From UHGV virus genome UHGV-0301147: a stretch of DNA of 42,879 bases; one strand, given 5' to 3'. Positions 4,425-37,092 of this stretch are shown one piece after another (position 1 is the stretch's first letter; every line of letters starts with the position of its first letter). The notes under the pieces were generated by a model that searched no databases, had not been told where the DNA came from, and was given only the letters and a program-made list of their open reading frames with translations. Source of the stretch: a virus. The position numbers and the translations under genes were made by a program.

Positions 4425-4814
4425 CGATTTTCATGACCTCGTTTACATAGAAATTAAAAACCCGGTACGGCAGGTCCATTTGCGTATCGGGCGGGATGGC
4501 AAGTTTTTTCGCAATAAACGGAATCAGAATAACTATATCTGATGTCGGTCTTTCGGGGGCTTTACCAGTTCGTTAAACGCGGCCTCCATTTGATCGTAAT
4601 CGCACACAGGCAGTGCATATAAATCCTCACGCTCCAGATTTGCCAGGCGCGCCAGCATTGTCGCTGTCCGCTCTTCAAGACCACTTTTATCGTTACTGAA
4701 CATAATGCGGTCGCGTAATTTTGGTTCGCGAATAGTAATTGTATCGCGGCTCTCACCCTTAATAATAAACGGGCGAGAGAGCGTAATAGTCATACTGTCT
4801 AATAATGATTCCAT
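4402..4814 (-). CDS. Predicted E+E' fusion produced by programmed -1 frameshift near the 3' end of the chaperone gene
   Basis: The -1 frame opens after a stop at 4573-4575, runs ~55 codons without stops across the 108-bp gap and ends at 4402-4404, overlapping the tape measure start at 4424; G GTA AAG lies in the shift window. Confidence 0.5.
4533..4814 (-). CDS. Tail assembly chaperone (P2 gpE-like)
   Basis: 93-aa ORF between the tube gene and the tape measure gene. Confidence 0.7.
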   Translation of the reverse strand: MESLLDSMTITLSRPFIIKGESRDTITIREPKLRDRIMFSNDKSGLEERTATMLARLANLEREDLYALPVCDYDQMEAAFNELVKPPKDRHQI

Positions 4815-4826
4815 TTTATTTGCCTT

Positions 4827-5339
4827 TTAATATACATGGAGAATACGAGCAACGCCCGCAAGAACGTCAACACCATTAATTACTCGTTTCATTTTTGCAG
4901 GATGAATCTCGTAAATAACTTTTCCATTTTGAACTCGTTTATAATAGCTCGGCGCAATCGTTACTGATTGCCCAACTGCTGATTTTGAATCAGTCCCCTG
5001 CGCGTCATCAGTAATCGCCGTAATAAGCCCCTCATATGTATCAATACGTTCAAAATTGACACCGTAATTGTCAGTATATGCACTTCGAATTTCGAACCTT
5101 GTTTTAGCACCTGGTATTAATCCAAAATACCCCATCACACCAGAATCGGAGCCAGAGACTTTAAAACTGGCTGACATTTTCTCCATTCCTCCGTCCAGAG
5201 TGATAGCTGTATCCATCGCGCCTGTTTTAAACTCGTCTTCGATTATTTTCATATCGACTGGAGTATATTCAGTACAATTTAAAACCCGTTCGCCCTGCAC
5301 GAATAGCGCAAACGCGCGGTAAGCGTTGCTGTCTGACAT
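4827..5339 (-). CDS. Contractile tail tube protein (gpFII-like)
   Basis: 170-aa ORF directly downstream of the sheath gene. Confidence 0.8.
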   Translation of the reverse strand: MSDSNAYRAFALFVQGERVLNCTEYTPVDMKIIEDEFKTGAMDTAITLDGGMEKMSASFKVSGSDSGVMGYFGLIPGAKTRFEIRSAYTDNYGVNFERIDTYEGLITAITDDAQGTDSKSAVGQSVTIAPSYYKRVQNGKVIYEIHPAKMKRVINGVDVLAGVARILHVY

Positions 5340-5356
5340 ATTTAATCTCCGAATTA

Positions 5357-6859
5357 TCAGGCTGCTTCTTTAAAAAGGGAGGCCAGTGCTTCAACTGTAT
5401 AGTCATTATTAATGCGGTACATTAACGTAATTGTTTGTGCCGGAGATTTCGGACCAAAATCAACATTAATATAAAGATTACCCGCAGCCAGGCTTTCTTT
5501 TGTATTCAGCTCACTGTCTAACCACGCACGCCCTCCGTTAATCGCACCCTGCTCCTCTAATTTGTGCAGATATGCGTTTATCGACTCGACAACGTCTGTT
5601 CCGAGGTGCAGGTCTATCGGACGAACAATAAAATCGGTCATCATTGCCCGGGCTATAGAATCCTCAATTACGTCAGCTGTTCGACGAACGCTCTCGAAAG
5701 ACCATTGCGGGCTGAGGCTGCACAAATAGTTACCCCAGTGTCTGAACCCGTCATAGCGAATAATCGTGCTGACCTGGCTGGCATTCAGCAGGTTCGCTGT
5801 GCAGTTTGTCTCACCAATAATAAAATCGTCGACTTGTTCAAGCCCTGTAACTCCGTAGATATTCTGGTTCGATTTACTCCACCAGAATCCTTTTTCATTA
5901 TCAATTCGGGCTCGTAAACCAGCAGCGATAGCTGAATACGGACGAGATAACCCACTGACATCACTCGTAGAATAAACGCGAGGTCGCAACAACTCAGCGC
6001 GTCCGCCGAGTTTTTGCCTGCGATTCACAACGTCTGCAGGGGTAGCAGCGCGCGGAGAGTCGATATAACACACTCCCCGGAGTTTATTTGCAACCACTTC
6101 AAGCTGAGCCGCTATTTCGTCTCGTGCGCTGTAATCCGGCGCTATAATAATTCGCGGGGTAACTTCGTTAATTTGCGCTGACGTCAAAAGCGAATTAATT
6201 CCGGCGATAACATTTTCGCTCATATCAGCGTCGTCGCTACTCTCTACAACGCGAACAACAACGATTAATGCATCAGTCTGATTTAAAATATCAGAAATAG
6301 CGGGGGGCAGAGTCCCGTATTTCCCGAGCAGGGCGGCTTTCTTCTGACTACCTGCAATTAATACAGGAGAATTAATCGGGAATGCGTCATCTGTTCCACC
6401 TGATAAATTTGTTGGTGGAAGACCAAATACTGTACCGGTTCCGGAATGCTCGCCACCAAAAGTTACATTAATCCACTCTCCGTCTGTTTTCCCCTCTCTA
6501 TATTCCTGATTCTGATCATACATTTTGCCGGGGGTCATTCCCGGCTCCGTAATCATCGTTAATTTTTTTGTTCCGTCGGGCAGCGTGCTATATCCTGGAG
6601 TGCAGGTTGCGCCCTCAACTGTCATATCTACAATTTCAACAACCCATTTGTTCCCGTCGCTGCCCGGTGATACAGTTGAAAACTCAACGAGATTATCAGC
6701 CAGCGATGAGCCCCACGTTAATGATGCTCTCGTAGCCTCCGCGACGTTCGTCGCAGTACCAACAATCCCAATCACGGAAATATCTACTGTGTTGATCTCT
6801 TTTGTGCCGTCGTCGTATTCGAGCGTGCGAATACCGTGCAAAAAATTAGTTACGCTCAT
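5357..6859 (-). CDS. Contractile tail sheath protein (gpFI-like)
   Basis: 500-aa ORF with sheath-family character, in sheath-tube-chaperone-tape measure order. Confidence 0.85.
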   Translation of the reverse strand: MSVTNFLHGIRTLEYDDGTKEINTVDISVIGIVGTATNVAEATRASLTWGSSLADNLVEFSTVSPGSDGNKWVVEIVDMTVEGATCTPGYSTLPDGTKKLTMITEPGMTPGKMYDQNQEYREGKTDGEWINVTFGGEHSGTGTVFGLPPTNLSGGTDDAFPINSPVLIAGSQKKAALLGKYGTLPPAISDILNQTDALIVVVRVVESSDDADMSENVIAGINSLLTSAQINEVTPRIIIAPDYSARDEIAAQLEVVANKLRGVCYIDSPRAATPADVVNRRQKLGGRAELLRPRVYSTSDVSGLSRPYSAIAAGLRARIDNEKGFWWSKSNQNIYGVTGLEQVDDFIIGETNCTANLLNASQVSTIIRYDGFRHWGNYLCSLSPQWSFESVRRTADVIEDSIARAMMTDFIVRPIDLHLGTDVVESINAYLHKLEEQGAINGGRAWLDSELNTKESLAAGNLYINVDFGPKSPAQTITLMYRINNDYTVEALASLFKEAA

Positions 6860-7245
6860 TTTATTCCTTCTCTATTTTCACCAATTCGCGTCGCTATTGC
6901 TTCTTTAAGCTCGGCCAAGTTTTCGATTTGCGCGTCAGATGCGGTTCCGGCATCTACTGCACACTGAATTGAGAATGCCTCAATTGACAGATCGCCAACA
7001 GTCCGTAATGTAGTCTGGAGTTTTTGCGTCTGCTCTTTTTTTACAAATTTAGAAATGCTCCCATAATCCCCGCTCAGCGCTCTTTCATATAAAACCCTAC
7101 CGTGTTCCTCGCAATCATTTTTCATTGCGGTGAATGGAATGTCGTTTCCAATCCCGTCAATATCGCAAATAATATTTATAGATAACCCATGCTCGTCATT
7201 AAAAACAGGGTTTGTTATTTTTCTAAATGAATCAACACTTATCAT
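6856..7245 (-). CDS. Tail fiber assembly protein (gpG-like)
   Basis: 129-aa ORF immediately downstream of the tail fiber gene; call is mainly positional. Confidence 0.55.
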   Translation of the reverse strand: MISVDSFRKITNPVFNDEHGLSINIICDIDGIGNDIPFTAMKNDCEEHGRVLYERALSGDYGSISKFVKKEQTQKLQTTLRTVGDLSIEAFSIQCAVDAGTASDAQIENLAELKEAIATRIGENREGIK

Positions 7246-8456
7246 TACGCAATCCTAATAGCTAAAAAACAGGCAGTCCCAATATCACCGACCCCGCCTG
7301 GTGAATACGCCATAGCTCGCCATGAGCCAACAAGGGGTGTGTCATAAAATGGTTTTGTGGCAATATCCGTGTTATATGAACCGGTATTATTTATACTAGC
7401 GTAATATAAATCACCTCCAGCCCATATGGAGCCCGGTAGTATTTGTGGTGCATGATTAATAGCGACAAGCGCATAAGTATTAACCGCGCCAACAACACCT
7501 ATTTCCGGTGATGGGTCCGGTGAAAGACTTATATCTATGTTGCCATTTTCATCCGGCGACTCCCCGTTAATCGTTTTAACCGGTTTAAGATTAGCCTCAT
7601 TCCAGTATTTATACGTCATTCCGCCACACAGTAATACCAGGCCATCATAGTGAACTCCGCGTAATCTATAAAAAACCTTCTGATTGTTTTCTCCACGGGT
7701 CGAAAAATCTAAATAATCGCCCGACACATCTGATAAACCAGCAAGTGAAAACAACGTCAAATCAGTGCCCGGTTTGTTTATATTTATTTGTTTTTTAGAG
7801 GATAAAACGTCTTCAAAAATCACATCATCTTTAAAAGTATTTGGATGAGTAAATGCATTACCCTTATCTCTATATGCAACGTCCCCATCTATACCAATAT
7901 TTTTCCGCGCAGCCTGCTGAGCAGTTTCACCATTTGCGGGAATTTCAGATAAGTTTTTACTTATCTGCAAATATTTTTTGTCAGCTTCCTCGGGAGTTAC
8001 GTAGTTGTCATATACTACAACATTAACCGTAGATGTGCTGGACACCGCGAGTGTGTATTTATACGTGATTGAAATCAGCGCACCGTTGCTGTCCGTAGGT
8101 TTTAAAATGTCCGGCGAGCGCGCCACAGAGTACAGCTCGCCTTTATCTGTTAATATCCCCACCTCACGGATAGTATAGCCCCCAGTGTCTGGCGGTACGT
8201 AAAGTGTAAAGATAACCTGGTTACCGCTATTTTCTGCGGATTTAATATCCCCACGATACGTCTCGTGAATTAATGCAGTTCGTGCCGGGTCCGGTGTTAC
8301 GTCGTCGTTTCCGTTTGCGTCGCCAATAACGAATTTATTCAGCACCACGGGTACACCCGATGCCAGCGCAGCGGCTTCAAGTTGCGCCCCCCGGTCTGTC
8401 AGTACCGCATAAACCTGGCTCGCGCTCGCTTTCAGATTTGATTTTAATTTAGCCAT
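7245..8456 (-). CDS. Tail fiber protein (gpH-like)
   Basis: 403-aa ORF after baseplate gene I with a conserved-looking N-terminus and a variable C-terminus. Confidence 0.75.
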   Translation of the reverse strand: MAKLKSNLKASASQVYAVLTDRGAQLEAAALASGVPVVLNKFVIGDANGNDDVTPDPARTALIHETYRGDIKSAENSGNQVIFTLYVPPDTGGYTIREVGILTDKGELYSVARSPDILKPTDSNGALISITYKYTLAVSSTSTVNVVVYDNYVTPEEADKKYLQISKNLSEIPANGETAQQAARKNIGIDGDVAYRDKGNAFTHPNTFKDDVIFEDVLSSKKQININKPGTDLTLFSLAGLSDVSGDYLDFSTRGENNQKVFYRLRGVHYDGLVLLCGGMTYKYWNEANLKPVKTINGESPDENGNIDISLSPDPSPEIGVVGAVNTYALVAINHAPQILPGSIWAGGDLYYASINNTGSYNTDIATKPFYDTPLVGSWRAMAYSPGGVGDIGTACFLAIRIA

Positions 8457-10384: not shown

Positions 10385-11256
10385 ATATGAGTGTGTCCGT
10401 TGTACGTTGTGCGGACCTCAGTCATTGTGCCTTGTCGGTCCTGCACCTCTTGCCCTGCTAACACACTACCGCGAGTTGTGATATTACCTGTTCCACCGTT
10501 ATCTCCAGTGACAGAAATATCGTTACGGAATGTCGCTAATTTATCTACTACTAATGTCTCGGTAATATGCGTTGGACCAGCTAGTGTTATACCACCCGGA
10601 GCCCACGCGCTGATTGTTTGAGCTGTCAGCGATATTCTGTTCGCAGCAGTAACACTAACAGAACTCGTTGCTATAACGTTCACTAAATCAGCATGTGCGT
10701 TAATTGTATCTGTCGCTGTGACATTAATAATATCAGCGTCTGCGTTAATTAATTTCCCACCATGGATATTAACTACATTTTCGCTATTAATAGTAACATC
10801 TGCGCGTCCAAATATTTCTATTTCAGACTCACCGAGTATTTTTACCACGCCGTCCGGTACGCCCTGCCATGTCAGAGTGTGATTTTTTGTGTTATACGTC
10901 ATCGTAGCCCCGTCACAGTATGCAGTGACATGATCATGGGGGTCATTGCTTGGCGGAGCTTTGTCGTCAATGTGCAGCCCGAGCATAACTACACCGTTCC
11001 GCGTATCCCCACCCTCAGAAACAACAGTAACGGGATCGCCCACTGATGGTGCGCTCCAGTCGACGCGTTCTGAGGTGGCGTGAGTAAACCACTGCAGCCA
11101 GCCTGACTGGTGTTCGCCACCAAATGAGACTCGGCAGCGTGGAGGATTCATTTTAACTGCAGCTATCGTGCCGCGTTTAACTGCGTCACGCAGCCTGCGC
11201 GCGTTCTCCGCTGCAGCATATTCATCGTCCGATTGGGCCATAATAGTCGCCCTCAT
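10339..11256 (-). CDS. Baseplate assembly/spike protein V
   Basis: 305-aa ORF with gpV-type N-terminus and Gly-rich repeat C-terminus; true start may be an internal Met. Confidence 0.8.
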   Translation of the reverse strand: MRATIMAQSDDEYAAAENARRLRDAVKRGTIAAVKMNPPRCRVSFGGEHQSGWLQWFTHATSERVDWSAPSVGDPVTVVSEGGDTRNGVVMLGLHIDDKAPPSNDPHDHVTAYCDGATMTYNTKNHTLTWQGVPDGVVKILGESEIEIFGRADVTINSENVVNIHGGKLINADADIINVTATDTINAHADLVNVIATSSVSVTAANRISLTAQTISAWAPGGITLAGPTHITETLVVDKLATFRNDISVTGDNGGTGNITTRGSVLAGQEVQDRQGTMTEVRTTYNGHTHICPDGETQQPNQPMA

Positions 11257-22102: not shown

Positions 22103-22452
22103 TTCTTAGAAATTTGGCAATATACCAAATTAGCGTTAAATATGGCCTATTTTGTTCGGTTTTGCAAGCATTATACGCAAACGTCGTCTAAATGGTTTTG
22201 ATAATGATGCAAAGTTGCAAGAAGTGCCACTTCATCAAGTGCTCTCACCGCCTCTTTCATTCCTGCCCAGTGCGGGGAGTATGTTTCGCACCAGGTGGAA
22301 CGAGAAACAGACAACATTCCAGCTAGCGCAGATCCGGCCATCTCCTTAAAATCCTCGCGTTTATTTGATGCTGCGACCGCCTGCACGGACAACCACACCA
22401 ACGAAAGCAGGCGCTTAACTACTTTTCTCTGAGTTGACGCGGGGATGTTTCC

Positions 22453-22480
22453 TTTATAGCGACTCCAGACAGCCTAACAA
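22453..22480 (-). promoter_or_regulatory. pR'-like late promoter candidate immediately after the Q-like gene
   Basis: Minus strand TTGTTA - 16 nt - TATAAA overlapping the stop of the 22474-22842 gene. Confidence 0.35.
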
Positions 22481-22842
22481 ATAGCTGTTTGGTGTTTGAA
22501 TGCCAGGTTACCACCGTAGCAATAACGCAACCACGCTTGCTGACTTGCATCCAGCGAGTTCACAGAACGCCGCCAGGATGAATCAGCAAATTCAAAATCA
22601 CTCATCGGCGGCGCGGGGCGACGTCTGCTGAAACTTTCCAGAGCGTAAACTGGCGTAACCAGAGCATCAACGGTCCGGTCCTCCAGCTGCACACGGTGAA
22701 TATGTTTGCGTGGGTATGCGTTTTTGTCTGCCGGTGGGTGCTCACACAATGCTTCCAGTTGCCCCTTAGAACCACCAGACAAATCCCGCAATGCAGCGCG
22801 CAGTTTTATGCGGGTATATTCCAATAAATACTCGTTACTCAT
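22474..22842 (-). CDS. Putative late-gene antiterminator (Q-like); assignment is positional
   Basis: 122-aa ORF between the YbcO-like gene and the promoter/terminator/holin region; lacks the DxD motif of RusA. Confidence 0.4.
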   Translation of the reverse strand: MSNEYLLEYTRIKLRAALRDLSGGSKGQLEALCEHPPADKNAYPRKHIHRVQLEDRTVDALVTPVYALESFSRRRPAPPMSDFEFADSSWRRSVNSLDASQQAWLRYCYGGNLAFKHQTAIC

Positions 22843-23805: not shown

Positions 23806-23985
23806 TTACGCGTCAGGGGGTGTAATAGTATATCCAGCTATTTCTGCCAACTCGAGAAACGCCATCAGGCTGGCAATCCGCTCATCATCGGTCAGAACAC
23901 GCACACCAACGATGTGTCCGTCCTTACGCTTGATAACAGCCCGGCATGTTTCCGGTAGTTCGCCTATAGATTCTTGAATATTCAT
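23806..23985 (-). CDS. Small hypothetical protein (~59 aa) preceded by an SOS box; candidate SOS-inducible antirepressor or division inhibitor
   Basis: ORF below the supplied 60-aa cut-off (MNIQESIGELPETCRAVIKRKDGH...), strong SD AGGGGGAAG, CTGT-N8-ACAG box 22 bp upstream; stop coordinate approximate. Confidence 0.45.
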   Translation of the reverse strand: MNIQESIGELPETCRAVIKRKDGHIVGVRVLTDDERIASLMAFLELAEIAGYTITPPDA

Positions 23986-24005
23986 GTCTTCCCCCTAACG
24001 CCATT

Positions 24006-24025
24006 GCCTGTACATTTATACAGTA
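24006..24025. promoter_or_regulatory. LexA (SOS) box candidate overlapping a sigma70-like promoter
   Basis: gcCTGTacatttatACAGta, close to the CTGT-N8-ACAG consensus; overlaps a putative -10 (TATAAA) with ATGACA -35 on the minus strand. Confidence 0.6.
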
Positions 24026-24136
24026 TTTTATGGCATTTGTCATAACGCTAGATACAATGAGGGAATAATGAACAATTATATTCACGTCGTGAATTTTATT
24101 AAACGGTTTTATAGGGGATTAAACCGTTTATGGTCA

Positions 24137-24768
24137 TTATTTATCACTCCTGTAAATTGAAATTAACCATTTTCTAATCGTCGACGCTGCAGGTGGGTCA
24201 GAGTATTTCGCCACAAAAATACCGGATATGTATTGCACACCACGCGATAATGGCGCTGTCGGGTTTTCAGTAAAAAAACGATCAGCCAGTTCAATGGCTT
24301 CGCTTTTTAATCTGTGCTGTGGCCGTCCTCCGCCCTTCGTGCCAAGGTAGCGCGCCAGTTGTTTGAAACGGTAAGCAATGATTAACGGTCGCATCATCAT
24401 ATTGAAAAAATCGCGGGCATCGTTGTCAGCGCCTTGCGCTATCAACAGTGCAAAAAACAGATACGGGATTGTGTACACTTCAGGGGATATACGAACTCGT
24501 TTACAGGTTGGTGGAGCCAAATTAATAAGTAAGTCAGCCAGCGAATTCCCCTTTTCTCCACGTTTGTAATAGCGATACAGCGGCCCGATATCGAGTTTAC
24601 TCACATCGATTTCAGGGTGCTCGGCAACGGCTGTACGTATCTCTTCTGCCAGAGCGTCAAATATTGCTCCGGTCCGCTCAAGATAGAGCCTCCGGGTCGA
24701 ACCGCGATCATCCAACGCCCGTAACATATCTAACCGGCTAACGAAAGTTTCAGGCCAGCCCTCATAGA
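24137..24768 (-). CDS. Hypothetical protein
   Basis: ORF with good SD (GAGGT) before the Met at 24768; the longer annotated start at 24814 lacks a ribosome-binding site; no family recognised. Confidence 0.5.
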
Positions 24769-24845
24769 AGGTTTTCATAATTACCTCGAATAATAAAAAC
24801 TGCACTATTTGCACAATTTATTATTCGTTTTCACATCGCAGGGTT

Positions 24846-24875
24846 CTATAAAAAAGAAAACCCGCCGAAGCGGGT
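24846..24875 (-). terminator. Rho-independent terminator after the 24897-25175 gene
   Basis: Minus strand aacccgc-ttcg-gcgggtt hairpin followed by TTCTTTTTTAT. Confidence 0.6.
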
Positions 24876-24896
24876 TAGTTAATAAGTTACACCTGG

Positions 24897-25175
24897 TTAT
24901 GAGGCCATGCCGTAGGCTTTTTTATGCATCCCATGGTCATATCCCATGTTATATGCTTCAAAAGCATCTTTATGACGTACATGCCCGGCCTGGCTTTCGG
25001 GTAAATCACCTAAAACAGAGTCATCAACCGCACGCGGAACGCCAATTAATGCGTGCCACATACCTTTATCATAGGCACATCCACAACATTTGTGCCGCCC
25101 AACGTTCCCCTGATTTGCGGAAAGAACATCAAACATACTGTCGTGACGATGTGACTTTTTACAGATGTGTTTCAT
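24897..25175 (-). CDS. Small Cys/His-rich hypothetical protein
   Basis: 92-aa ORF followed by its own terminator; start may be the internal Met; no family recognised. Confidence 0.45.
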   Translation of the reverse strand: MKHICKKSHRHDSMFDVLSANQGNVGRHKCCGCAYDKGMWHALIGVPRAVDDSVLGDLPESQAGHVRHKDAFEAYNMGYDHGMHKKAYGMAS

Positions 25176-25203
25176 TCATTGACCTATATCATTTTCGGTA
25201 ATG

Positions 25204-25265
25204 AATGCTTTACACGGGATCCCGGTTGAGGTAATCTCCCAAACCGAGATCTCAACGAAAGCATT
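25204..25265 (+). ncRNA. Candidate structured small RNA (nested stem-loops) ending at the plus-strand terminator
   Basis: Outer stem aatgcttt / aaagcatt (25204-25211 with 25258-25265) enclosing gggatccc and an interrupted helix ggttgag...atctc / gagatctcaac; a terminator follows 9 nt downstream. Confidence 0.3.
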
Positions 25266-25273
25266 AACCGATG

Positions 25274-25308
25274 TTTTTGTATGGCCCTGACAGCTCCAAC
25301 TGTCAGGG
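25274..25308 (+). terminator. Rho-independent terminator (plus strand) with no protein gene upstream on that strand
   Basis: 10-bp stem gccctgacag / ctgtcagggc, 6-nt loop, followed by TTTCCCTTT. Confidence 0.6.
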
Positions 25309-25395
25309 CTTTCCCTTTGATGCGATTCTAAAATCTTCGCAACCTCCAGATCCTATCCAGGACCAAGAAAAACTTCAATGAAAAGATCAAGTTAG

Positions 25396-25415
25396 ATCTG
25401 TATTTTTTTACAGAT
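25396..25415. promoter_or_regulatory. Second LexA-box-like site
   Basis: atCTGTatttttttACAGat fits CTGT-N8-ACAG with an AT-only centre; in the 567-bp intergenic region between the 92-aa gene and the ImmA-like gene. Confidence 0.45.
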
Positions 25416-25651
25416 GTAATAAATCACACATGTAATAGCCTTCCCTTCCTGTGCTCATCCAGGCGCTTGTGGCATCCATTTTTTTCAGAAACATATGGAC
25501 GCCTAAAAAACCACTAATCTCATGATTATCCTGTATGTTTTTACTGGAAACATTGAGACATCCACAATGCAGCGTAAAAAGCAAGCAATTCACAAGATTT
25601 TAAAGTGATTTATCTGGAAGACTTTACTACTAACAGTTAATATCGTACCAG

Positions 25652-25670
25652 AAGTGCAGAATTTGCACTT
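25652..25670. promoter_or_regulatory. 19-bp perfect palindrome (operator candidate) upstream of the ImmA-like operon
   Basis: AAGTGCA-GAATT-TGCACTT, ~75 bp upstream of the start at 25743. Confidence 0.4.
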
Positions 25671-25742
25671 TTACAGGAATGTGGTACGGAACATGTTGTC
25701 TATATTTCGACCAATAATCGTAATGCAGTAACTGGAGGAGCT

Positions 25743-26231
25743 ATGGCTACCAACCCAAGAGAGCACGCCCGGCGAGTGCTGGACACGTTCTGGTGCGGGC
25801 GTGGTTTCCCTGTTGATCCAGCGAAAATTGCTCACGACATGGGATTAGATGTTTTTATTACCGATCTTCCTGGGAAAGTTTCTGGCGCACTGATTAAACA
25901 AAAAGATCAAGATCCAGCGATCTTTCTAAACAGTGATGACAACAAAGTTCGTCAACGTTTTTCATGTGGGCATGAGTTGGGGCATTACATCGCCCGGCAA
26001 GCATCGCATAGCGATGAATATGAGTACGTTGATTTACGTGGCGAAACCGCAAGCGCCGGAACGCATCCTGATGAAATTTTTGCGAACAAGTTCGCAGCAG
26101 AACTTCTGATGCCGGTAGATGAGGTCAGAAAACTGCACGCTGACGGCCAACCAAGTTATATAATGGCGCATCATTTTGGCGTATCTGACGATGCGATGAC
26201 TTATCGTTTAAAGAACTTGAGGTTGGGGTAA
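25743..26231 (+). CDS. ImmA/IrrE family zinc metallopeptidase
   Basis: 162-aa ORF with HEXXH motif (CGHELGHYIARQ) and strong SD GGAGGAG. Confidence 0.85.
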   Translation: MATNPREHARRVLDTFWCGRGFPVDPAKIAHDMGLDVFITDLPGKVSGALIKQKDQDPAIFLNSDDNKVRQRFSCGHELGHYIARQASHSDEYEYVDLRGETASAGTHPDEIFANKFAAELLMPVDEVRKLHADGQPSYIMAHHFGVSDDAMTYRLKNLRLG

Positions 26232-26240
26232 CGCTTTAGA

Positions 26241-26846
26241 ATGCCATCGGATGACGATTTTAACAGCCGTTTCAAACAGGAAGTTGCACGCCGACTGAAG
26301 GATTCCCTCAACCTACACCGTCAGTTAGCAGAAGAGGTTGAGCCGGAGGAGGATGAAACTCCGGTTCAGTCTCCTGACGAAACTTCACCTCAGACAAAGG
26401 TTTCGCACGCTCCAAAAAAACCGTCTGCCCGTATTCACGGAATAGCCAGAAAAAGAGCTGCCGAAGCTCACAAAATGGCTGTAGCTGCGTCAATCAAAAG
26501 AATTCCAATTCCTACCCCCTCTCAACAAGTCACCCGTACTGAGAGTAAAATCTTGACCGAGTTCACATCTGTGAAACAGGTGAGTTCACTTGATACCGAG
26601 CATGAGCGCAAACAACTCAACAACAAAGATTTTGAAGCTGAAATCGCTCTAAAAAAACGCTACGGAAAATGGTTCCTGATAATCCTTGCTTGCCAACTTC
26701 TGATAATGAATGGTGTATTTATTGCCGACGGCGCAGGTAAGCTGGAATTTGAAGATTTAACGCTACAGTTGTACATGGGCGGTACTTTGACAGAGGTATT
26801 CGGCCTCGTGCTGGTCGTGACAAAATACCTTTTTAAACGCAAGTAA
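26241..26846 (+). CDS. Hypothetical membrane protein (acidic N-terminal region, two C-terminal transmembrane helices), co-operonic with the ImmA-like gene
   Basis: 201-aa ORF starting 9 bp after the ImmA-like stop; hydrophobic segments KWFLIILACQLLIMNGVFIA and GGTLTEVFGLVLVVTKYLF. Confidence 0.6.
   Translation: MPSDDDFNSRFKQEVARRLKDSLNLHRQLAEEVEPEEDETPVQSPDETSPQTKVSHAPKKPSARIHGIARKRAAEAHKMAVAASIKRIPIPTPSQQVTRTESKILTEFTSVKQVSSLDTEHERKQLNNKDFEAEIALKKRYGKWFLIILACQLLIMNGVFIADGAGKLEFEDLTLQLYMGGTLTEVFGLVLVVTKYLFKRK
26775..26846 (+). repeat. Direct repeat copy A (last 24 codons of the membrane-protein gene)
   Basis: 72 bp matching 30377-30448 with 6 mismatches. Confidence 0.8.
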
Positions 26847-26955
26847 CTCTCTCTATGGAACAGACTTTAGTCGATTTAATGGAGAAGACCAGCAACCCCA
26901 AATGACCAAGTAACAAGTGCTGGCCTTATAGACGATTACTGAGTGTGTTCGAGTG

Positions 26956-27360
26956 TTATCGTTGTACAATTCGTCCGTTGGGATCCAGCCACATCCCATC
27001 AGAAAGATACACCATTTCCCTGGGTTCATCCGTTACCTGCAGGTCATGGTAAATTGAAGTAAGCTCATTTTTAGGTGAAGGAGTGATATCTTCGCTTCCA
27101 AAGATCATATCTTGGTATTGTGCCCAATTTTGGCGAATTTCGAAATACATATCAACATCATAATCCTGCCCTCTTAGTTCATCATCTGAAGATATATTCA
27201 ATGTCTTTTTGAGACCGATGATGTTAAAGATCCACTTCTTACCACCTTTAATGAAGTATGCCCCAGTATATGCCTCTTCATCTGGTACAGCCTCATAACC
27301 TAAATTTAATGCTAATTGTATCTGTTCTGCTAATGTAAAAGACTCTTTCCATCCACTCAT
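26956..27360 (-). CDS. Hypothetical acidic protein
   Basis: 134-aa ORF in the low-GC cassette; no family recognised. Confidence 0.5.
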   Translation of the reverse strand: MSGWKESFTLAEQIQLALNLGYEAVPDEEAYTGAYFIKGGKKWIFNIIGLKKTLNISSDDELRGQDYDVDMYFEIRQNWAQYQDMIFGSEDITPSPKNELTSIYHDLQVTDEPREMVYLSDGMWLDPNGRIVQR

Positions 27361-27680
27361 AGCTTATTACCTACCTGTGAACCTGTTTGCTGCATGAAAA
27401 ACAATATAATAAAGCGTTATTGAAGACTATGAACCAAGTAAATTTAATCAAAGACGTTTATAACGCATTTGCCTAAACAACTTCCACCGTATGATCCGCT
27501 TCTCGCTCTCAGCAGACCTTTATCTGCAGGTGCTTGTCTGCTGTGTTCCAGAAGCAGATATTATTATATAACTCTTTAACCCATGTATGACAAAATATTC
27601 TTGGAGCTTATTAAAACTTCATACGTCTAAATCACCTCTTCATTAGTGAATCAATAATTGTATAGTTAAAATGTAACACT

Positions 27681-28346
27681 TTATTTTTTATGATTAACTT
27701 GCTTTGCTAAAGAGCTATAAATCATATCAACCAAAACATATTTTTCGCATTCCCAAGGTTCACTAATAGATGGGTTTACTAAGTCTGGCTTCCCCCCCAT
27801 TAGTGTATGAACATGCGAATAAATACCTATTCTTTCTGCGAGTTGCATTATTTTTATTTGATGTTCTGGTGGGAGCATTTTGTTTTTAAACCATGTTGTA
27901 AATATATGCTTGGTAAGTTCCTTAGTACAAACAAACCATTCACCTTGACGTCTTTCGTTGCTAAATTTTTCATGAAGATAATTTTCTTTTTCTGAACCAC
28001 CAGGTTCCAAAGCGTGTAATATTAATTGACCAAATGCACCTGTTTGCAGGTTAGACAACCTTTTTAGCACATTATTGGAACGCCCTATTTTCACATAAAG
28101 TCCCGAGTAAGGGTTATTTTTATCTGAAGAACCGGCCCAAGTATCAGGCACTTGTAAAATATAATAAATACTACTTACTTTCCCACTCGATACATTATTT
28201 GCCCAAATCTGCCATTCTTCCATCCAGCTTTTTGCATCTTCTCTCGTGTCAAAGGCATGACTTGTATAGTAAAATTCACCAGTATCCAAGAACATATCGA
28301 AAACATATTTGCCATTCTCTATAATTCTTAAGTTGTCGGCTTTCAT
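27681..28346 (-). CDS. T5orf172 (MUG113, GIY-YIG-like) domain protein; putative defence-type nuclease
   Basis: 221-aa ORF containing LYVKIGRSNNVLKRLSNLQTG ... ENYLHEKFSNERRQGEWF, matching the T5orf172 signature (YKIG-T ... R ... L ... E ... LH ... F ... R ... GEWF); AT-rich. Confidence 0.75.
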   Translation of the reverse strand: MKADNLRIIENGKYVFDMFLDTGEFYYTSHAFDTREDAKSWMEEWQIWANNVSSGKVSSIYYILQVPDTWAGSSDKNNPYSGLYVKIGRSNNVLKRLSNLQTGAFGQLILHALEPGGSEKENYLHEKFSNERRQGEWFVCTKELTKHIFTTWFKNKMLPPEHQIKIMQLAERIGIYSHVHTLMGGKPDLVNPSISEPWECEKYVLVDMIYSSLAKQVNHKK

Positions 28347-28550
28347 GGAAGTTTCTCACAAAGTTACAGGAATATATAAAAACTTTACTACGCTTAGTAT
28401 ATGTTACCACCTGATTATGTATTATTTGATTTACACAACTTATTGCTAGTAATAACGGTTTTGATGTAATCTTCTCATCCCAAACTAACCTTCAAAATAG
28501 ATTTAATCTAAATTATATCAAAATATGCTCTCAGTTAAGATGGCTTATTT

Positions 28551-28748
28551 TTAATCAGTTAGAGGATCAACCTGATTTTCTCTAATAAGATTTCGTAACG
28601 CAGTACGAGCAGCCGCGACTTCTGTCATTCCATTTAGAACCACGCTGGAATGCCCTCCTCTAACCCCAAAGACTGTGACCATATCCTCTTCACGGAAGTA
28701 TTCTGCTTCATACTGAAGGCCATCTTTCTCTACGCGAATATATGACAT
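28551..28748 (-). CDS. Small hypothetical protein
   Basis: 65-aa ORF with SD GAGG, upstream of the T5orf172 gene. Confidence 0.45.
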   Translation of the reverse strand: MSYIRVEKDGLQYEAEYFREEDMVTVFGVRGGHSSVVLNGMTEVAAARTALRNLIRENQVDPLTD

Positions 28749-29374
28749 AACAACCTCATTTTATTATCTTTTGTTTGAATGATATATCCACAAAATAATT
28801 TAAGCAATCTCGCCCAAGACGGCACGCCAAGCTTGCCTTGTAAGTATAATGTAAATATTCCGATAAAACTAATCATTCGCTTTTAGCGCATGTCCAAAAA
28901 ATGGTTCAGGTATCCTATCGTGCCAATATTCGCTCCTCACTCATAGCGGCTTTCAGGCAAGTTAACTAGTCCGCTCGGTGCCATATAGAGCCATGGTTAT
29001 TAACAGCAGGGAATAATTCCACACTGAAATTAAATGTCTGCCTTTTACAGTAGAAATAGTTTCTCCAGGACACTATCCATTGCCGGGCACAATCACTCGG
29101 GGTATAACGATATAAAATATGTTCATGATAGTGCAGGTTCGTATATTAAGTTCAGCAGCGAAAACATGCCTTACAGGTTTCCGGTTTTGGGAGCGTCGTT
29201 ACAGGATCCTGCGCATACCGTTCCCATCTGTTGAATTAAAGGTTTCACAGCCTTTGCCGATATCGCCTTTTACCTTGCCTGTGATGCGTTCAGTGCTCAG
29301 CGTTGTTTACTGTAGCTCTCGGAACTGATTACAGACCGCGTCTTAAAAACCAATCCTTACTCTAAAGGGAATTC

Positions 29375-30298
29375 ATGAGATTAAAATACTCAGTACTCTT
29401 ACTCGCCATTGCCCTTACAGGCTGTGATAACAAAAAAGATGAGATCGGTTGTTCTTCGGAAATGACCCAATCAGCTCTCATGGATTTATTAAAAAAATCT
29501 GCTTATGAAGGACTCTCTGAACAGGTCGATAAATACCCTGATGTCACTAATCAGACCAAACGAAGCACACTGGACAAGATCAAACTAGCCGTCTCTGAAA
29601 TCTCCACAACATCAAGTGACACGGGCAGCACAATGAAAACTTGTGAAGGGACCGTGACGATGACTCTACCTGCGAACGAGTACGTCCAGCTTTCAGATGC
29701 TTACAGAAAGAATTTTAATCGTAATCTCGACAAGCAAATGGAAAGCCTGTTTTTGGAGAACAACGCAAACGCCTTTTCCAAACGTATCACCTACACCGTG
29801 CAGGCGACCGACGATCAGAAAAACGTTTTTGTAAAAACCTCTTCTGATAATCCGATATCAGTGGGCGCCGCTTTACTGACATCACTTTCTATTATCAACC
29901 CGATCGTTGAGCAGCAGAAAATCCAGCAGGCTAAGGATGCCCAACAGAGCCAAATTGAAGCGGAACAACAGGTGCAACTCAGGGCGCAGGAACAGGCTAA
30001 GTATGAGGCGGAGAAGCAAATAGAGAGACAGGCACAACTTCAGCCACAAAAAGCTGACAGCCTTGATCAGTCCCGAATGGCATTTGCGAATGCCGACTCT
30101 GATTTGAGTACCGTCTGGAGCAAGTTAACCCCGGCGAAGAAAAAAGATTTGCTGCCTTCTCAGCGTCAGTGGATCAAAACTAAGGATGCTATGTGCGGTA
30201 AAGTTTCAATGCAGGGAACAGATGCTGAAGTCAAGAAAATGCTCGACTGCCAGACGCAAATGACCCTTTCAAGAATCGCTTTCCTCAGAAACCAATAA
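29375..30298 (+). CDS. Lipoprotein with Gln-rich coiled-coil region and C-terminal DUF1311 (LprI-like) domain
   Basis: 307-aa ORF with lipobox LTGC and C-terminal DLLPSQRQWIKTKDAMCG ... MLDCQTQMTLSRIAFL typical of DUF1311. Confidence 0.7.
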   Translation: MRLKYSVLLLAIALTGCDNKKDEIGCSSEMTQSALMDLLKKSAYEGLSEQVDKYPDVTNQTKRSTLDKIKLAVSEISTTSSDTGSTMKTCEGTVTMTLPANEYVQLSDAYRKNFNRNLDKQMESLFLENNANAFSKRITYTVQATDDQKNVFVKTSSDNPISVGAALLTSLSIINPIVEQQKIQQAKDAQQSQIEAEQQVQLRAQEQAKYEAEKQIERQAQLQPQKADSLDQSRMAFANADSDLSTVWSKLTPAKKKDLLPSQRQWIKTKDAMCGKVSMQGTDAEVKKMLDCQTQMTLSRIAFLRNQ

Positions 30299-30312
30299 CT
30301 GAAGTTTCCTTC

Positions 30313-30346
30313 AAGCTGGCGCCAGGTGTTAACCTGGTGCCAGCTT
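30313..30346 (+). terminator. Strong stem-loop after the DUF1311 lipoprotein gene (terminator candidate)
   Basis: aagctggcgccagg / cctggtgccagctt 14-bp stem (one G-U) with loop tgttaa, 15 bp after the stop; no clean U-tract. Confidence 0.4.
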
Positions 30347-30376
30347 AGTCATCAAGTGCATATTTAACTGTTTTAT

Positions 30377-30448
30377 ATGGGCGGTACTTTGACAGAGGTA
30401 TTCGGTCTCGTGCTGGTCGTGGTCAAATACCTTTTTAAACGCAAATAG
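30377..30448 (+). repeat. Direct repeat copy B (orphan 24-codon remnant of the membrane-protein gene 3' end)
   Basis: 72 bp matching 26775-26846; retains ATG and a stop but no upstream gene body. Confidence 0.8.
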
Positions 30449-31309: not shown

Positions 31310-31533
31310 TCATCTGGTGGTGAACTGTGCAGGGTTGGCGTAACCGGCTAAGTGAACCCGGCGCTTCCGCAGAAGCCCCCACACAGCCCACCATAATGCG
31401 AATGTGGCCGTGCCTAACACATAAAAAAACCGCTAACGCGGCTATGCGTCACTTAGATATCCGGGACGCCAATCCCGGCAACCGATTTTGCGGCTGCGCG
31501 GAAACTATAGCCCCGGGCTTTTTCTAAGTCAAT

Positions 31534-36678: not shown

Positions 36679-37092
36679 ATGAGGATGAAAAATTTGATGC
36701 TTAGCGACCGTTTATCTCAAAGACGCAAACAGCTTGGTCTAACCCAACAACAGCTTGCTGATATGGTTGGAAGATCGAGTGTGAGCGTTTTTAAATGGGA
36801 AAGCGGACAAAATGAACCAAAGGGCCAGAACTTGTTGGCTTTGGCCAATGCACTCAAGTGTTCTGCCACATGGCTGCTTTTTGGTGACGAAGACCAGGCG
36901 CCAACTCCGGTAGACGAATTACCAACAGAGCTGGATTCACGTCAAAAAAGATTGTTAGAGTTATTTGATTCATTACCCGAGTCAGAAAAAGAAAAGCAAC
37001 TAATTGAATTAGAAGATAAAGTTGAAAACTTTAATCGTTTATTTGAAGAGTTACTGGTTACCAGAAAGAAACTAACCCCCACCAAAAAATAA
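36679..37092 (+). CDS. CI-like prophage repressor, XRE-family HTH only (no S24 autopeptidase domain)
   Basis: 137-aa ORF with HTH LTQQQLADMVGRSSVSVFKWESG; too short for a LexA-like cleavage domain; start may be the Met at 36697. Confidence 0.8.
   Translation: MRMKNLMLSDRLSQRRKQLGLTQQQLADMVGRSSVSVFKWESGQNEPKGQNLLALANALKCSATWLLFGDEDQAPTPVDELPTELDSRQKRLLELFDSLPESEKEKQLIELEDKVENFNRLFEELLVTRKKLTPTKK

What the first reader, a model, noticed from the sequence alone, without database searches (positions are those of the whole stretch)
23806..30448. Low-GC, mixed-orientation accessory island in the nin/late-regulator hotspot
Between the YbcN-like gene and the antirepressor gene, gene orientation flips repeatedly, each unit has its own promoter-like and terminator-like signals, and GC drops sharply (27.4-29.3 kb is visibly AT-rich). 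None of the ~10 ORFs is a standard lambdoid core gene. This slot is a known insertion site for cargo and anti-phage genes in lambdoid prophages, so it is the most likely place for an undescribed system.
Basis: partly seen in the sequence, partly recalled or inferred. Interest (0 to 1): 0.75.

Follow-up and report, generated by a model that had tools for sequence, protein, structure and literature searches.

The report
Prophage cargo hotspot with protease–membrane gene pair
This stretch of an E. coli prophage is a real swap-in cargo site, where sister prophages carry proven anti-phage genes, and it also holds an uncharacterised protease plus membrane-protein gene pair that always travels as a unit in prophages of many bacteria.

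Summary
The region 23806-30448 is the lowest-GC 6.6 kb of the window (41.9% vs 48.5%). Its genes run - - - + + - - - +, between a DUF1367 gene and an ORF6N antirepressor. Promoter-like motifs are not enriched.

It is a mosaic, not one unit.
1. p59, behind a conserved LexA box, and p213 are conserved across the prophage lineage.
2. An ImmA-like M78 peptidase (162 aa) and a protein with a C-terminal two-helix membrane hairpin (201 aa) form a mobile operon. The peptidase gene sits directly upstream of the membrane gene in all 38 loci examined, from Proteobacteria to Firmicutes prophages. The membrane family has 657 clusters, no Pfam family and no PADLOC hit.
3. A swap slot (26869-28973, 36.5% GC) holds a stand-alone T5orf172/GIY-YIG nuclease plus two orphan genes. 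In sister prophages this slot, or a larger replaced segment containing it, carries PD-T4-3, HEC-08 or a GmrSD_N/NsnA-like gene.
4. An LprI-type inner-membrane lipoprotein follows.

The defence-hotspot reading is supported by comparison only. No phenotype was tested. The peptidase-membrane pair is the best candidate for an undescribed system; its mechanism is inferred.

The parts
23806..23985 (-). p59, a 59-aa protein (phrog_340) related to the C-terminal part of the neighbouring antirepressor. It is conserved in all sister prophages.
   Evidence: phrog_340, E = 1.6e-20; the same family also hits residues 213-254 of the antirepressor. (100% identical in L002, L013, L014 and L042-L047).
24006..24025 (-). 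LexA-box-like site TACTGTATAAATGTACAGGC, 20 nt upstream of the p59 start codon and overlapping a TATAAA -10-like hexamer.
   Evidence: The CTGT/ACAG half-sites are kept while the spacer varies in L013, L014, L023 and L040. In ST131 strain MNCRE44 an ISEc53+clbS insertion splits the box, with an 8-bp duplication ATATTTAT. LexA binding itself is inferred.
24137..24778 (-). p213 (the ORF extends to 24814), an all-alpha protein with a probable C-terminal helix-turn-helix (phrog_5215). It is conserved across the lineage and its function is unknown.
   Evidence: The AF2 model has pLDDT 75, and Foldseek against the PDB gives no significant match.
24877..25480 (.). Variable slot A. It contains p92 (24897-25175, -; phrog_3941), its terminator (24876-24859, -), a strongly folding + strand element (25176-25325) that ends in a terminator (25283-25310), and a second CTGT-N8-ACAG site (25398-25413).
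   Evidence: Replaced by unrelated DNA in ST131. The fold z-score is -5.75.
25743..26231 (+). ImmA/IrrE-type zinc metallopeptidase, 162 aa, peptidase domain only. H77-E78-x-x-H81 and E111 are intact.
   Evidence: Pfam PF06114, 64 bits against a cut-off of 22. PADLOC capP E = 1.6e-25, covering model positions 3-151 of 242. PDB 7t5t CapP, E = 1e-4. The motif is conserved in all 10 aligned homologues.
26241..26846 (+). Membrane partner, 201 aa. It has a conserved N-terminal helix, a variable-length charged linker, a conserved juxtamembrane helix and a nearly invariant two-helix hairpin (about 26670-26822, residues 144-194), followed by a KYLFKRK tail.
   Evidence: The family has 657 clusters at 50% identity. 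There is no Pfam, NCBIfam or PADLOC hit. The peptidase gene lies directly upstream in 38 of 38 loci.
26765..26845 (+). First copy of an 81-nt direct repeat, which is the 3' end of the TM gene. The second copy, at 30367-30447, is an orphan remnant after LprI.
   Evidence: 90% identity. The orphan copy is also present in prophages that lack the ImmA-TM pair.
26869..28973 (.). Variable slot B, a low-GC cassette (36.5% GC) found in only 18 of 5426 E. coli genomes.
   Evidence: Alternative contents in sister prophages.
26956..27360 (-). p134, an orphan protein. Its only relative found is STM3752 in Salmonella SPI-3.
   Evidence: It does not co-occur with GIY221 elsewhere.
27681..28346 (-). GIY221, a stand-alone T5orf172/MUG113 (GIY-YIG superfamily) nuclease. 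It has a YegP/DUF1508-like N-terminal domain (residues 1-55) and a helical C-terminal part.
   Evidence: Pfam. The AF2 model has pLDDT 90.5. BFVD gives 56 matches with E <= 1e-3 to T5orf172/GIY-YIG proteins. The N-terminal domain matches 3bid and 6q2z with probability 0.97-0.99. R96, R132, R133 and E136 are invariant.
28551..28748 (-). p65, an orphan protein with no family match.
   Evidence: It is found only together with this cassette.
29375..30298 (+). LprI/DUF1311 lipoprotein, 307 aa. Lipobox LTGC with Cys17 and Asp at +2, which predicts retention in the inner membrane. It is conserved across the lineage.
   Evidence: Pfam PF07007, 31 bits against a cut-off of 22. phrog_5094. Sequence. Conservation.
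30367..30447 (+). Second copy of the 81-nt repeat, an orphan 3' end of a TM gene. It marks the right-hand recombination boundary.

Best explanation
The region is a mosaic accessory hotspot in the nin region of a temperate E. coli prophage that has a lambda-like head and a P2-like tail. The prophage sits next to tRNA-Leu/Cys/Gly and pgsA-uvrC. The region has four kinds of content.

(1) p59 and p213 belong to the prophage lineage. p59 sits behind a LexA box and is probably an SOS-induced regulator of a prophage whose repressor has no self-cleaving domain.

(2) The ImmA-like peptidase and its membrane partner form an autonomous two-gene module that moves between accessory sites. My proposed mechanism, which is inferred and not shown, is as follows. 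The cytoplasmic zinc peptidase is made together with a membrane hairpin protein of N-in/C-in topology. A cue from infection or DNA damage lets the peptidase cut the partner's disordered cytoplasmic tail. The freed, invariant hairpin, which carries polar residues Q152, N157 and E185 inside its helices, then oligomerises and collapses the membrane potential. The result is abortion or exclusion of a superinfecting phage.

(3) Slot B is a swap site for single-gene defences. Here it holds a T5orf172/GIY-YIG nuclease that most likely cuts incoming DNA.

(4) LprI is an inner-membrane periplasmic lipoprotein moron.

My confidence differs by part: about 0.85 for the hotspot reading, about 0.9 that ImmA-TM is a functional two-gene unit, and about 0.35-0.4 that it is a protease-gated membrane effector for defence. 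The single figure given (0.55) is a compromise between these.
For: Hotspot. Flanks are conserved while two sub-segments are swapped. Validated or defence-type genes occupy slot B, or a larger replaced segment that contains it, in sister prophages: HEC-08, PD-T4-3, a GmrSD_N/NsnA-like protein and a SMEK_N protein. The island has the lowest GC of the window.

ImmA-TM as a unit. The peptidase gene is directly upstream on the same strand, overlapping or a few to tens of nt away, in 38 of 38 loci. These loci include Klebsiella, Serratia, Leclercia, Gallibacterium, Thalassotalea, Microbulbifer and Desulfuromonas, and prophages with Firmicutes-type lysis and spore-germination genes. DNA upstream of the ribosome-binding site is not conserved, so the module begins at the peptidase gene. 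The module sits at classic cargo positions: next to the integrase and tRNA, downstream of lysis genes, beside an MmeI restriction enzyme, or beside toxin-antitoxin pairs. It is also found outside prophages. The catalytic HExxH and Glu are intact in all aligned members. The hairpin is nearly invariant while the tail varies in length and sequence. Three E. coli type I-E CRISPR spacers match the pair and LprI exactly, with correct PAMs.

GIY221. It has the T5orf172 fold and conserved catalytic-type residues. Its homologues are single genes beside an AAA_15+DUF4435 pair (I read this as PARIS-like from my own knowledge) and in a Vibrio gene array that also holds BrnT and ParE toxin genes, which I read as an integron cassette array.
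Against: No window gene matches a known defence model beyond the peptidase domain. No phenotype, expression or cleavage data exist. The substrate of every characterised ImmA/IrrE/CapP peptidase is an Xre-type repressor, not a membrane protein (PMC13228613). This peptidase lacks the GAF domain through which CapP and IrrE sense ssDNA, so the trigger is unknown. Promoter motifs are not enriched. T5orf172 genes are best known as selfish homing endonucleases (PMC10448857). The prophage's Q gene carries an internal stop, so some content may simply be decaying.
Confidence: 0.55

Rival explanations
1. The ImmA-like peptidase is an anti-repressor protease of the prophage's own induction circuit, as ImmA is for ImmR. 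It would cleave the HTH-only CI-like repressor, and the membrane partner would tune its activity or the timing of lysis.
For: The prophage repressor (36685-37092) is 135 aa with an HTH_3 domain only and no S24 domain. That is the size and type of known ImmA, CapP and IrrE substrates (PMC13228613). In some phages the pair lies beside lysis genes. The two divergent repressors share a C-terminal motif, LLxLFxxLPESEK.
Against: The peptidase is 99.4% identical in prophages whose repressors are only 31% identical. Strain LD91-1 has the same repressor protein accession as strain AVS0747 but no ImmA-TM pair. The pair also occurs outside prophages, after sucCD and beside MmeI. The strict pairing with a membrane protein is left unexplained. 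A LexA-boxed p59 and a C4-RNA-controlled antirepressor already provide induction routes.
Confidence: 0.15
2. ImmA-TM is an addiction or toxin-antitoxin-like module. A membrane toxin would be held in check by a protease, or the reverse. It would stabilise the mobile element without protecting against phage.
For: It is a compact operon, overlapping or closely spaced, found on mobile elements and beside classical toxin-antitoxin pairs. COG2856 peptidases were predicted to be toxin-antitoxin components (PMC2701414). PD-lambda-2B, an Xre-peptidase fusion, is toxic when expressed alone (PMC9519451).
Against: Many toxin-antitoxin-like modules do act in defence, so this rival overlaps the main reading. 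No HTH autoregulator is present. The locations match defence cargo sites.
Confidence: 0.15
3. The low-GC cassette is a selfish insertion, a homing-type T5orf172 endonuclease with hitch-hiking orphan genes. The island's variability would then reflect nuclease-driven recombination rather than selection for defence.
For: T5orf172 genes sit at boundaries of genetic exchange in phages (PMC10448857). The cassette is rare (18 of 5426 genomes) and AT-rich. It lies next to an 81-nt recombination scar. p134 and p65 have no partners elsewhere.
Against: GIY221 lacks the Zn-finger CapR-type DNA-binding repeats typical of T5orf172 homing genes (PMC10448857). Its homologues are full-length and conserved (43-90% identity), and they lie in non-phage chromosomal islands, in what I read as a Vibrio integron cassette array, and next to a PARIS-like pair. 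Sister cassettes are proven defences.
Confidence: 0.25
4. The conserved cargo, LprI and perhaps ImmA-TM, consists of host-fitness or virulence morons, for example lysozyme resistance in animal hosts, rather than anti-phage functions.
For: The Pfam LprI family is named for a lysozyme inhibitor. The island is common in extra-intestinal clones and in blood or urine isolates.
Against: The count is dominated by one clone, ST131, so it says little about selection. The domain match is modest (31 bits) and covers only residues 226-304.
Confidence: 0.15

Closest known systems
ImmA-ImmR, CapP-CapH and IrrE-DdrO peptidase-repressor pairs
   Same: The peptidase has the same M78 zinc-peptidase domain with an intact HExxH and Glu. 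It is ImmA-sized (162 aa). Like these pairs, it is carried on mobile elements and near immune loci.
   Different: No Xre-type repressor is encoded next to it in the loci examined. It has no HTH or GAF domains and no cysteine-switch loop, unlike CapP. Its invariable partner is a membrane hairpin protein with no known family.
RosmerTA (RmrA) and PD-lambda-2B, Xre-peptidase fusion defence proteins
   Same: The PADLOC RmrA models match the peptidase domain (E down to 3e-12). These are proven defences built around an M78 domain.
   Different: Those proteins are 360-400 aa fusions of an HTH to the peptidase, and they pair with other toxins. Only the peptidase part of the models is matched here, and the membrane partner matches no PADLOC model.
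Protease-activated or two-component membrane effectors, such as bacterial gasdermin with its protease and lambda RexAB (comparison from my own knowledge)
   Same: The logic is the same: a cytoplasmic sensor or enzyme is encoded next to a small membrane protein that could depolarise the cell, and both are carried by prophages.
   Different: There is no sequence or fold relationship. Cleavage and pore formation are not shown for this pair.
T5orf172 homing endonucleases of ICP1-like and T5-like phages (PMC10448857), and PD-T4-3, a single-gene GIY-YIG defence (PMC9519451)
   Same: GIY221 belongs to the GIY-YIG superfamily. It is a stand-alone gene located at a recombination boundary and cargo slot.
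   Different: GIY221 has a YegP-like N-terminal domain instead of Zn-finger DNA-binding repeats. It does not match the PD-T4-3 model.
Defence hotspots of temperate phages and satellites, such as the P2/P4 hotspots (from my own knowledge), and prophage-borne systems in Vassallo et al. (PMC9519451)
   Same: Flanks are conserved while the content is interchangeable and often consists of single-gene defences. The DNA is low in GC.
   Different: This slot lies in the nin region of a hybrid prophage with a lambda-like head and a P2-like tail. It is nested beside a resident two-gene module whose 3' end serves as the recombination boundary.

Membership tests
Peptidase_M78 (ImmA/IrrE, COG2856) | Profile match above the curated threshold. 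| tested here: met
   PF06114, 64 bits against a cut-off of 22, residues 32-157.
Peptidase_M78 (ImmA/IrrE, COG2856) | HExxH zinc site plus a downstream Glu ligand. | tested here: met
   H77-E78-L-G-H81 and E111 (in the EIFAN motif) are identical in all 10 aligned homologues.
ImmA-ImmR / CapP-CapH / IrrE-DdrO regulatory pair | A cognate Xre-type HTH repressor encoded next to the peptidase. | tested here: not met
   Gene lists with Pfam labels show no HTH gene adjacent to the pair, which is always peptidase followed by the membrane protein. PGAP annotates no gene in the 570 bp upstream in the window. The small ORFs in that stretch were not tested individually.
CapP | C-terminal HTH and GAF domains that form the ssDNA groove, and a cysteine-switch loop. 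| tested here: not met
   The protein is 162 aa and matches capP model positions 3-151 of 242 only. There is no Cys between H81 and E111. Features are taken from PMC13228613.
RosmerTA RmrA | An Xre HTH fused to the M78 peptidase (about 360-400 aa). | tested here: not met
   Matches cover only the peptidase part of the RmrA models, for example positions 166-266 of 363.
T5orf172 / MUG113 (GIY-YIG superfamily) | Profile match above threshold and the fold. | tested here: met
   PF13455, 39.9 bits against 22.3, and PF10544, 30.8 against 20. 56 BFVD structural matches with E <= 1e-3 to T5orf172/GIY-YIG proteins.
T5orf172 / MUG113 (GIY-YIG superfamily) | Conserved catalytic-type Arg and Glu residues. 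| tested here: met
   R96, R132, R133 and E136 (in GEWF) are invariant in 29 homologues. Which of them is catalytic is inferred.
T5orf172 homing endonuclease | Zn-finger (CapR/DUF723-type) DNA-binding repeats, and a target site in endonuclease-free alleles. | tested here: not met
   The model has no Cys-rich domain; the N-terminus is YegP-like. A target site was not tested.
PD-T4-3 | Match to the PADLOC model. | tested here: not met
   GIY221 gives no PD-T4-3 hit at E <= 0.1. The LD91-1 gene in the replaced segment of that sister prophage matches at 5.7e-138.
LprI / DUF1311 lipoprotein | Profile match, signal peptide and lipobox. | tested here: met
   PF07007, 31.1 bits against 22, residues 226-304. 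The N-terminus reads MRLKYSVLLLAIALTGC-D. Lysozyme inhibition cannot be tested here.
Prophage defence/cargo hotspot | Conserved flanks with interchangeable content that includes known defence genes. | tested here: met
Prophage defence/cargo hotspot | An anti-phage phenotype of the content in this window. | not testable with these tools
   This needs cloning and phage challenge.
Holin | A small protein with two membrane helices, encoded in a lysis cassette, that triggers lysis. | tested here: inconclusive
   The two-helix hairpin is present. The pair sits beside lysis genes in some phages, but here and in several Enterobacterales loci it sits at cargo sites. There is no match to any holin family.

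The most novel reading that the evidence does not exclude
The ImmA-like peptidase and its two-helix membrane partner are a widespread, undescribed prophage-borne immune module. In it, an M78 protease gates a membrane-depolarising hairpin instead of cleaving a repressor. That would be a new output for the ImmA/IrrE/CapP sensor-protease family.
Probability: 0.3. Interest if true: 0.75.

Novelty: new variant of a known kind. Interest (0 to 1): 0.55.

Why it matters
The hotspot is an ordinary kind of thing, but it is well defined, and it is present in the pandemic ST131 lineage, which dominates the roughly 440 matching complete E. coli genomes.

The more useful result is the peptidase-membrane pair. 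It is a compact operon of about 1.1 kb. Its membrane component defines a family of hundreds of clusters that has no annotation, and the two genes are strictly paired across phyla. Until now, ImmA/IrrE/CapP peptidases have been understood only as cleavers of repressors. If this pair acts as a protease-gated membrane effector, it widens what that sensor family can control. It is cheap to test by cloning, phage challenge and a catalytic mutant.

The LexA-boxed p59, and the IS insertion that splits its box in the ST131 strain examined (MNCRE44), also give a testable lead on how this prophage lineage is induced or has been locked.

Tried and rejected
- **LF82 prophage Tritos.** A paper reports an ImmA/IrrE gene plus a hypothetical gene expressed in lysogens (PMC9928086). 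In the genome this is a 381-aa HTH-peptidase fusion with only 27% identity, not this module, so I did not use it as expression evidence.
- **Three-gene system in the low-GC cassette.** I tested whether p134, GIY221 and p65 form one system. GIY221 homologues in Enterobacter, Vibrio and Thiohalophilus never carry p134 or p65 relatives, so this was rejected.
- **Conserved leader upstream of the peptidase gene.** Alignment of six contexts shows conservation only from the ribosome-binding site onward.
- **Promoter enrichment.** None was found.
- **p213.** The family is narrow (14 clusters). The AF2 model is of moderate quality, and Foldseek against the PDB found nothing significant. Only a weak Pax-like HTH resemblance at the C-terminus appeared.
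- **GIY221 against the PDB.** There was no whole-protein match; only the YegP-like N-terminal domain matched.
- **tblastn of the membrane protein against isolated phage genomes** gave no match.
- **Rfam** found nothing inside the island.
- **Literature searches** for an M78 or COG2856 peptidase paired with a membrane protein found no description. The library is incomplete, so this is not proof of absence.

Full report
**What the window is.** The region is 100% identical to a chromosomal prophage of E. coli 22KM0354. That prophage is integrated beside tRNA-Leu/Cys/Gly and pgsA-uvrC. It has a lambda-type head (gpW, portal, S49 protease, gpFI) and a P2-type contractile tail. Most phage genes lie on the minus strand. 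Read in the phage's own direction, the order is:
- repressor and cro
- YdaT
- replication genes
- four small genes
- C4 antisense RNA and isrK
- ORF6N antirepressor
- the island
- DUF1367, DUF1364 and Q
- holins and endolysin

**Check of the observation.** Nine ORFs between 23806 and 30448 run - - - + + - - - +. The island is 41.9% GC against 48.5% for the window. It coincides with the lowest-GC 6.6-kb stretch of the window. The segment 26869-28973 is 36.5% GC and essentially the lowest 2.1-kb stretch (z = -2.8). No ORF matches a lambdoid core family. The claim that each unit has its own signals is not supported statistically. Promoter-like sites number 12 against 16.6 +/- 3.8 expected. Terminator-like sites number 12 against 6.9 +/- 2.7. 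Clear terminators exist only after p92 and at 25283-25310.

**Variation among relatives.** Parts of the island occur in 572 of 5426 complete E. coli genomes, but only 18 carry at least 80% of it. About 120 of the 572 hits are only CRISPR spacers (see below). Most of the rest are ST131-type prophages.

Against ST131 strain MNCRE44 the flanks and most genes are 96-98% identical. Two segments are replaced by unrelated DNA: 24877-25480 (slot A) and 26869-28973 (slot B). In addition, an ISEc53+clbS unit is inserted at about 24019.

Slot B, or a larger replaced segment that contains it, differs in each relative examined:

| Relative | Content |
|---|---|
| ST131 (MNCRE44) | a 232-aa protein |
| AVS0747 | HEC-08 (PADLOC E = 1e-173), a small integrase, an ETEC_3214 protein and a 269-aa protein |
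| C41 | a transposase remnant and a 266-aa protein |
| LD91-1 | a larger segment that also removes ImmA-TM, with PD-T4-3 (E = 5.7e-138), an HNH protein and four unknowns |
| IMG/VR L055 | a GmrSD_N/NsnA-like protein (E = 4.6e-41) |
| IMG/VR L042 | a SMEK_N protein and a methyltransferase |

HEC-08 and PD-T4-3 are experimentally validated defences (10.1101/2024.01.29.577857; PMC9519451). By contrast, p59, p213, LprI and the antirepressor are kept in all of these prophages.

**The ImmA-TM pair.** The gene at 25743-26231 encodes a 162-aa M78 peptidase (Pfam 64 bits; PADLOC capP E = 1.6e-25; PDB 7t5t). It consists of the peptidase domain only. It lacks the HTH and GAF domains and the cysteine switch that let CapP sense ssDNA (PMC13228613).

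Nine nucleotides downstream, 26241-26846 encodes a 201-aa protein with no Pfam, NCBIfam or PADLOC match. Its homologues share four features:
- a short N-terminal helix
- a charged linker of very variable length
- a conserved juxtamembrane helix
- an almost invariant C-terminal hairpin of two membrane helices, with polar Q152, N157 and E185, ending in KYLFKRK

The distribution of charges predicts that both ends face the cytoplasm; this is my inference. A profile search finds 657 clusters at 50% identity, mostly 100-190 aa long.

In every locus examined that carries a full-length homologue, an M78 peptidase gene lies directly upstream on the same strand, often overlapping. The count is 38 of 38, made up as follows:
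- 9 loci
- 10 from species genomes
- 6 from remote representatives, including prophages with Firmicutes-type genes
- 13 from IMG/VR

The peptidase is better conserved (77-87% identity) than its partner (44-52%) among Enterobacterales. DNA upstream of the ribosome-binding site is unrelated between contexts, so the mobile unit is just the two genes.

The contexts are cargo sites:
- between the tRNA attachment site and the integrase (Klebsiella, E. coli)
- after the late antiterminator (Serratia)
- downstream of the holin and endolysin at prophage ends (prophages with Firmicutes-type genes)
- beside an amidase and a holin (a Desulfuromonas phage)
- beside an MmeI restriction enzyme (Microbulbifer)
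- beside ParE/Phd or PIN/Phd pairs, outside any prophage (Thalassotalea and an uncultured proteobacterium)

I conclude that this is a functional, autonomous two-gene module. Literature searches found no description of it. Known M78-based defences (RosmerTA, PD-lambda-2) use HTH-peptidase fusions.

**Mechanism.** The strict pairing, the close or overlapping gene spacing, the intact active site, the disordered variable tail next to an invariant polar hairpin, and the cargo locations fit best with a protease-gated membrane effector. In this model a cue activates the peptidase, the tail is cut, and the hairpin assembles and depolarises the cell. Every step of this is inferred.

The main rival is that the peptidase cleaves the prophage's own HTH-only repressor. 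Three results weaken it:
- The peptidase is 99.4% identical in prophages whose repressors are 31% identical.
- Strain LD91-1 shares its repressor accession with strain AVS0747 yet lacks the pair.
- The pair also occurs outside prophages.

An addiction-module reading cannot be separated from defence without experiments.

**An 81-nt scar.** The last 81 nt of the TM gene (26765-26845) recur at 90% identity at 30367-30447, just after LprI. This orphan copy, with a more degraded stretch before it, is present even in prophages that lack ImmA-TM. The conserved 3' end of the TM gene has therefore acted as a recombination boundary. It brackets slot B plus LprI.

**The low-GC cassette.** GIY221 (27681-28346) passes the Pfam thresholds for MUG113 and T5orf172. 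Its AF2 model is confident (pLDDT 90.5). It matches 56 viral T5orf172/GIY-YIG models, and its first 55 residues form a YegP/DUF1508-like domain. R96, R132, R133 and E136 are invariant in 29 homologues.

Full-length homologues (43-90% identical) occur as single genes in other settings:
- beside an AAA_15+DUF4435 pair in Enterobacter, which I read as PARIS-like from my own knowledge
- in a Vibrio vulnificus gene array with BrnT and ParE toxin genes, which I read as an integron cassette array
- in Thiohalophilus

None of these is accompanied by relatives of p134 or p65. GIY221 is therefore a stand-alone unit. Its slot-mates PD-T4-3 and HEC-08 are single-gene defences, so defence is the leading reading. 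However, T5orf172 genes are best known as homing endonucleases at exchange boundaries (PMC10448857), so the selfish reading remains serious. p134 resembles only STM3752 of Salmonella SPI-3. p65 has no relatives outside this cassette.

**The left end is probably not cargo.** Only two CTGT-N8-ACAG sites occur in the whole window, and both are in the island (0.44 expected). The first, TACTGTATAAATGTACAGGC, matches 16 of 20 positions of the LexA consensus as I recall it. It overlaps a -10-like hexamer 20 nt upstream of p59. Its half-sites are kept while the spacer varies in four sister prophages. In MNCRE44 the ISEc53+clbS insertion lies inside the box, with an 8-bp duplication.

p59 is related to the C-terminal part of the antirepressor, and the prophage repressor has no S24 domain. 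I infer that p59 is an SOS-induced regulatory protein of the prophage.

p213 is all-alpha with a likely C-terminal HTH, and its function remains unknown.

Slot A holds three elements: p92, a second LexA-like site, and a + strand element. That element folds far better than shuffled sequence (z = -5.75), ends in a terminator, and is antisense to the p92 leader. It may be an sRNA. This was not tested further.

**LprI.** The 307-aa product has a lipobox with Cys17 followed by Asp. By the +2 rule (my own knowledge) this predicts retention in the inner membrane. It also has a glutamine- and glutamate-rich middle region and a C-terminal DUF1311/LprI domain. It is a conserved moron of this lineage. 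Its role could be lysozyme inhibition against incoming phage or against the animal host, but that is speculative.

**Verdict.** The island as such is an ordinary kind of feature. Its most valuable content is the uncharacterised, widely distributed peptidase-membrane pair, for which I give a specific and testable mechanism at modest confidence.

Noticed in passing
window 25951-25982, 26797-26828 and 29375-29406; L011 and L012: E. coli type I-E CRISPR arrays carry 32-nt spacers that match the ImmA gene, the 3' end of the TM gene and the start of LprI exactly. Each protospacer is followed by CAT or CTT, that is an ATG or AAG PAM. The ImmA and TM spacers are adjacent in strain JX21CE8. The LprI spacer accounts for about 120 of the genome hits.
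   Followed up: partly
window 24006-24025; L002 6205-6225 and 8095-8115: A LexA-box-like site lies directly upstream of p59. In ST131 strain MNCRE44 an ISEc53+clbS unit is inserted inside the box, with the target duplication ATATTTAT. This would uncouple p59 from SOS control.
   Followed up: partly
window 25176-25325 (+) and 25398-25413: A + strand element with three hairpins and a terminator folds at z = -5.75 and is antisense to the leader of p92. A second CTGT-N8-ACAG site lies about 220 nt upstream of p92. The layout recalls SOS-induced genes under antisense RNA control. There is no Rfam match.
   Followed up: partly
window 31313-31398 (-) and 31423-31497 (-): A C4 antisense RNA (74.5 bits) and isrK (80.4 bits) lie just upstream of the ORF6N antirepressor. 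This is a P1/P7 immI-type or Salmonella isrK-type control region.
   Followed up: no
window 22171-22842 (-): The late antiterminator Q gene is split by an internal stop. It is annotated as a pseudogene in the identical genome but is intact in ST131 relatives. This copy of the prophage may be unable to express late genes.
   Followed up: no
window 36685-37092 (+): The CI-like repressor has an HTH_3 domain only and no S24 self-cleavage domain. It is 31% identical to the repressor of sister prophages that share the same island genes.
   Followed up: partly
phage record ON470624.1 (24776-27112): Escherichia phage vB_EcoM-705R4, a 27-kb record, ends within this island (p59 to ImmA, 97% identical). 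By its name it was recorded as an isolated phage, which suggests that the lineage can form virions.
   Followed up: no
L016-L018 (Enterobacter), 4228-7923: The closest non-Escherichia homologue of GIY221 sits between a 151-aa unknown and a divergent AAA_15/AAA_21 ATPase plus DUF4435 pair, which I read as PARIS-like. The whole block lies in a small chromosomal island between transporter genes.
   Followed up: no
L006 (Serratia prophage), 10651-10932: The Serratia prophage that carries an ImmA-TM pair also encodes an Acb2/Tad1-hairpin family protein, an anti-defence fold, about 4 kb downstream.
   Followed up: no
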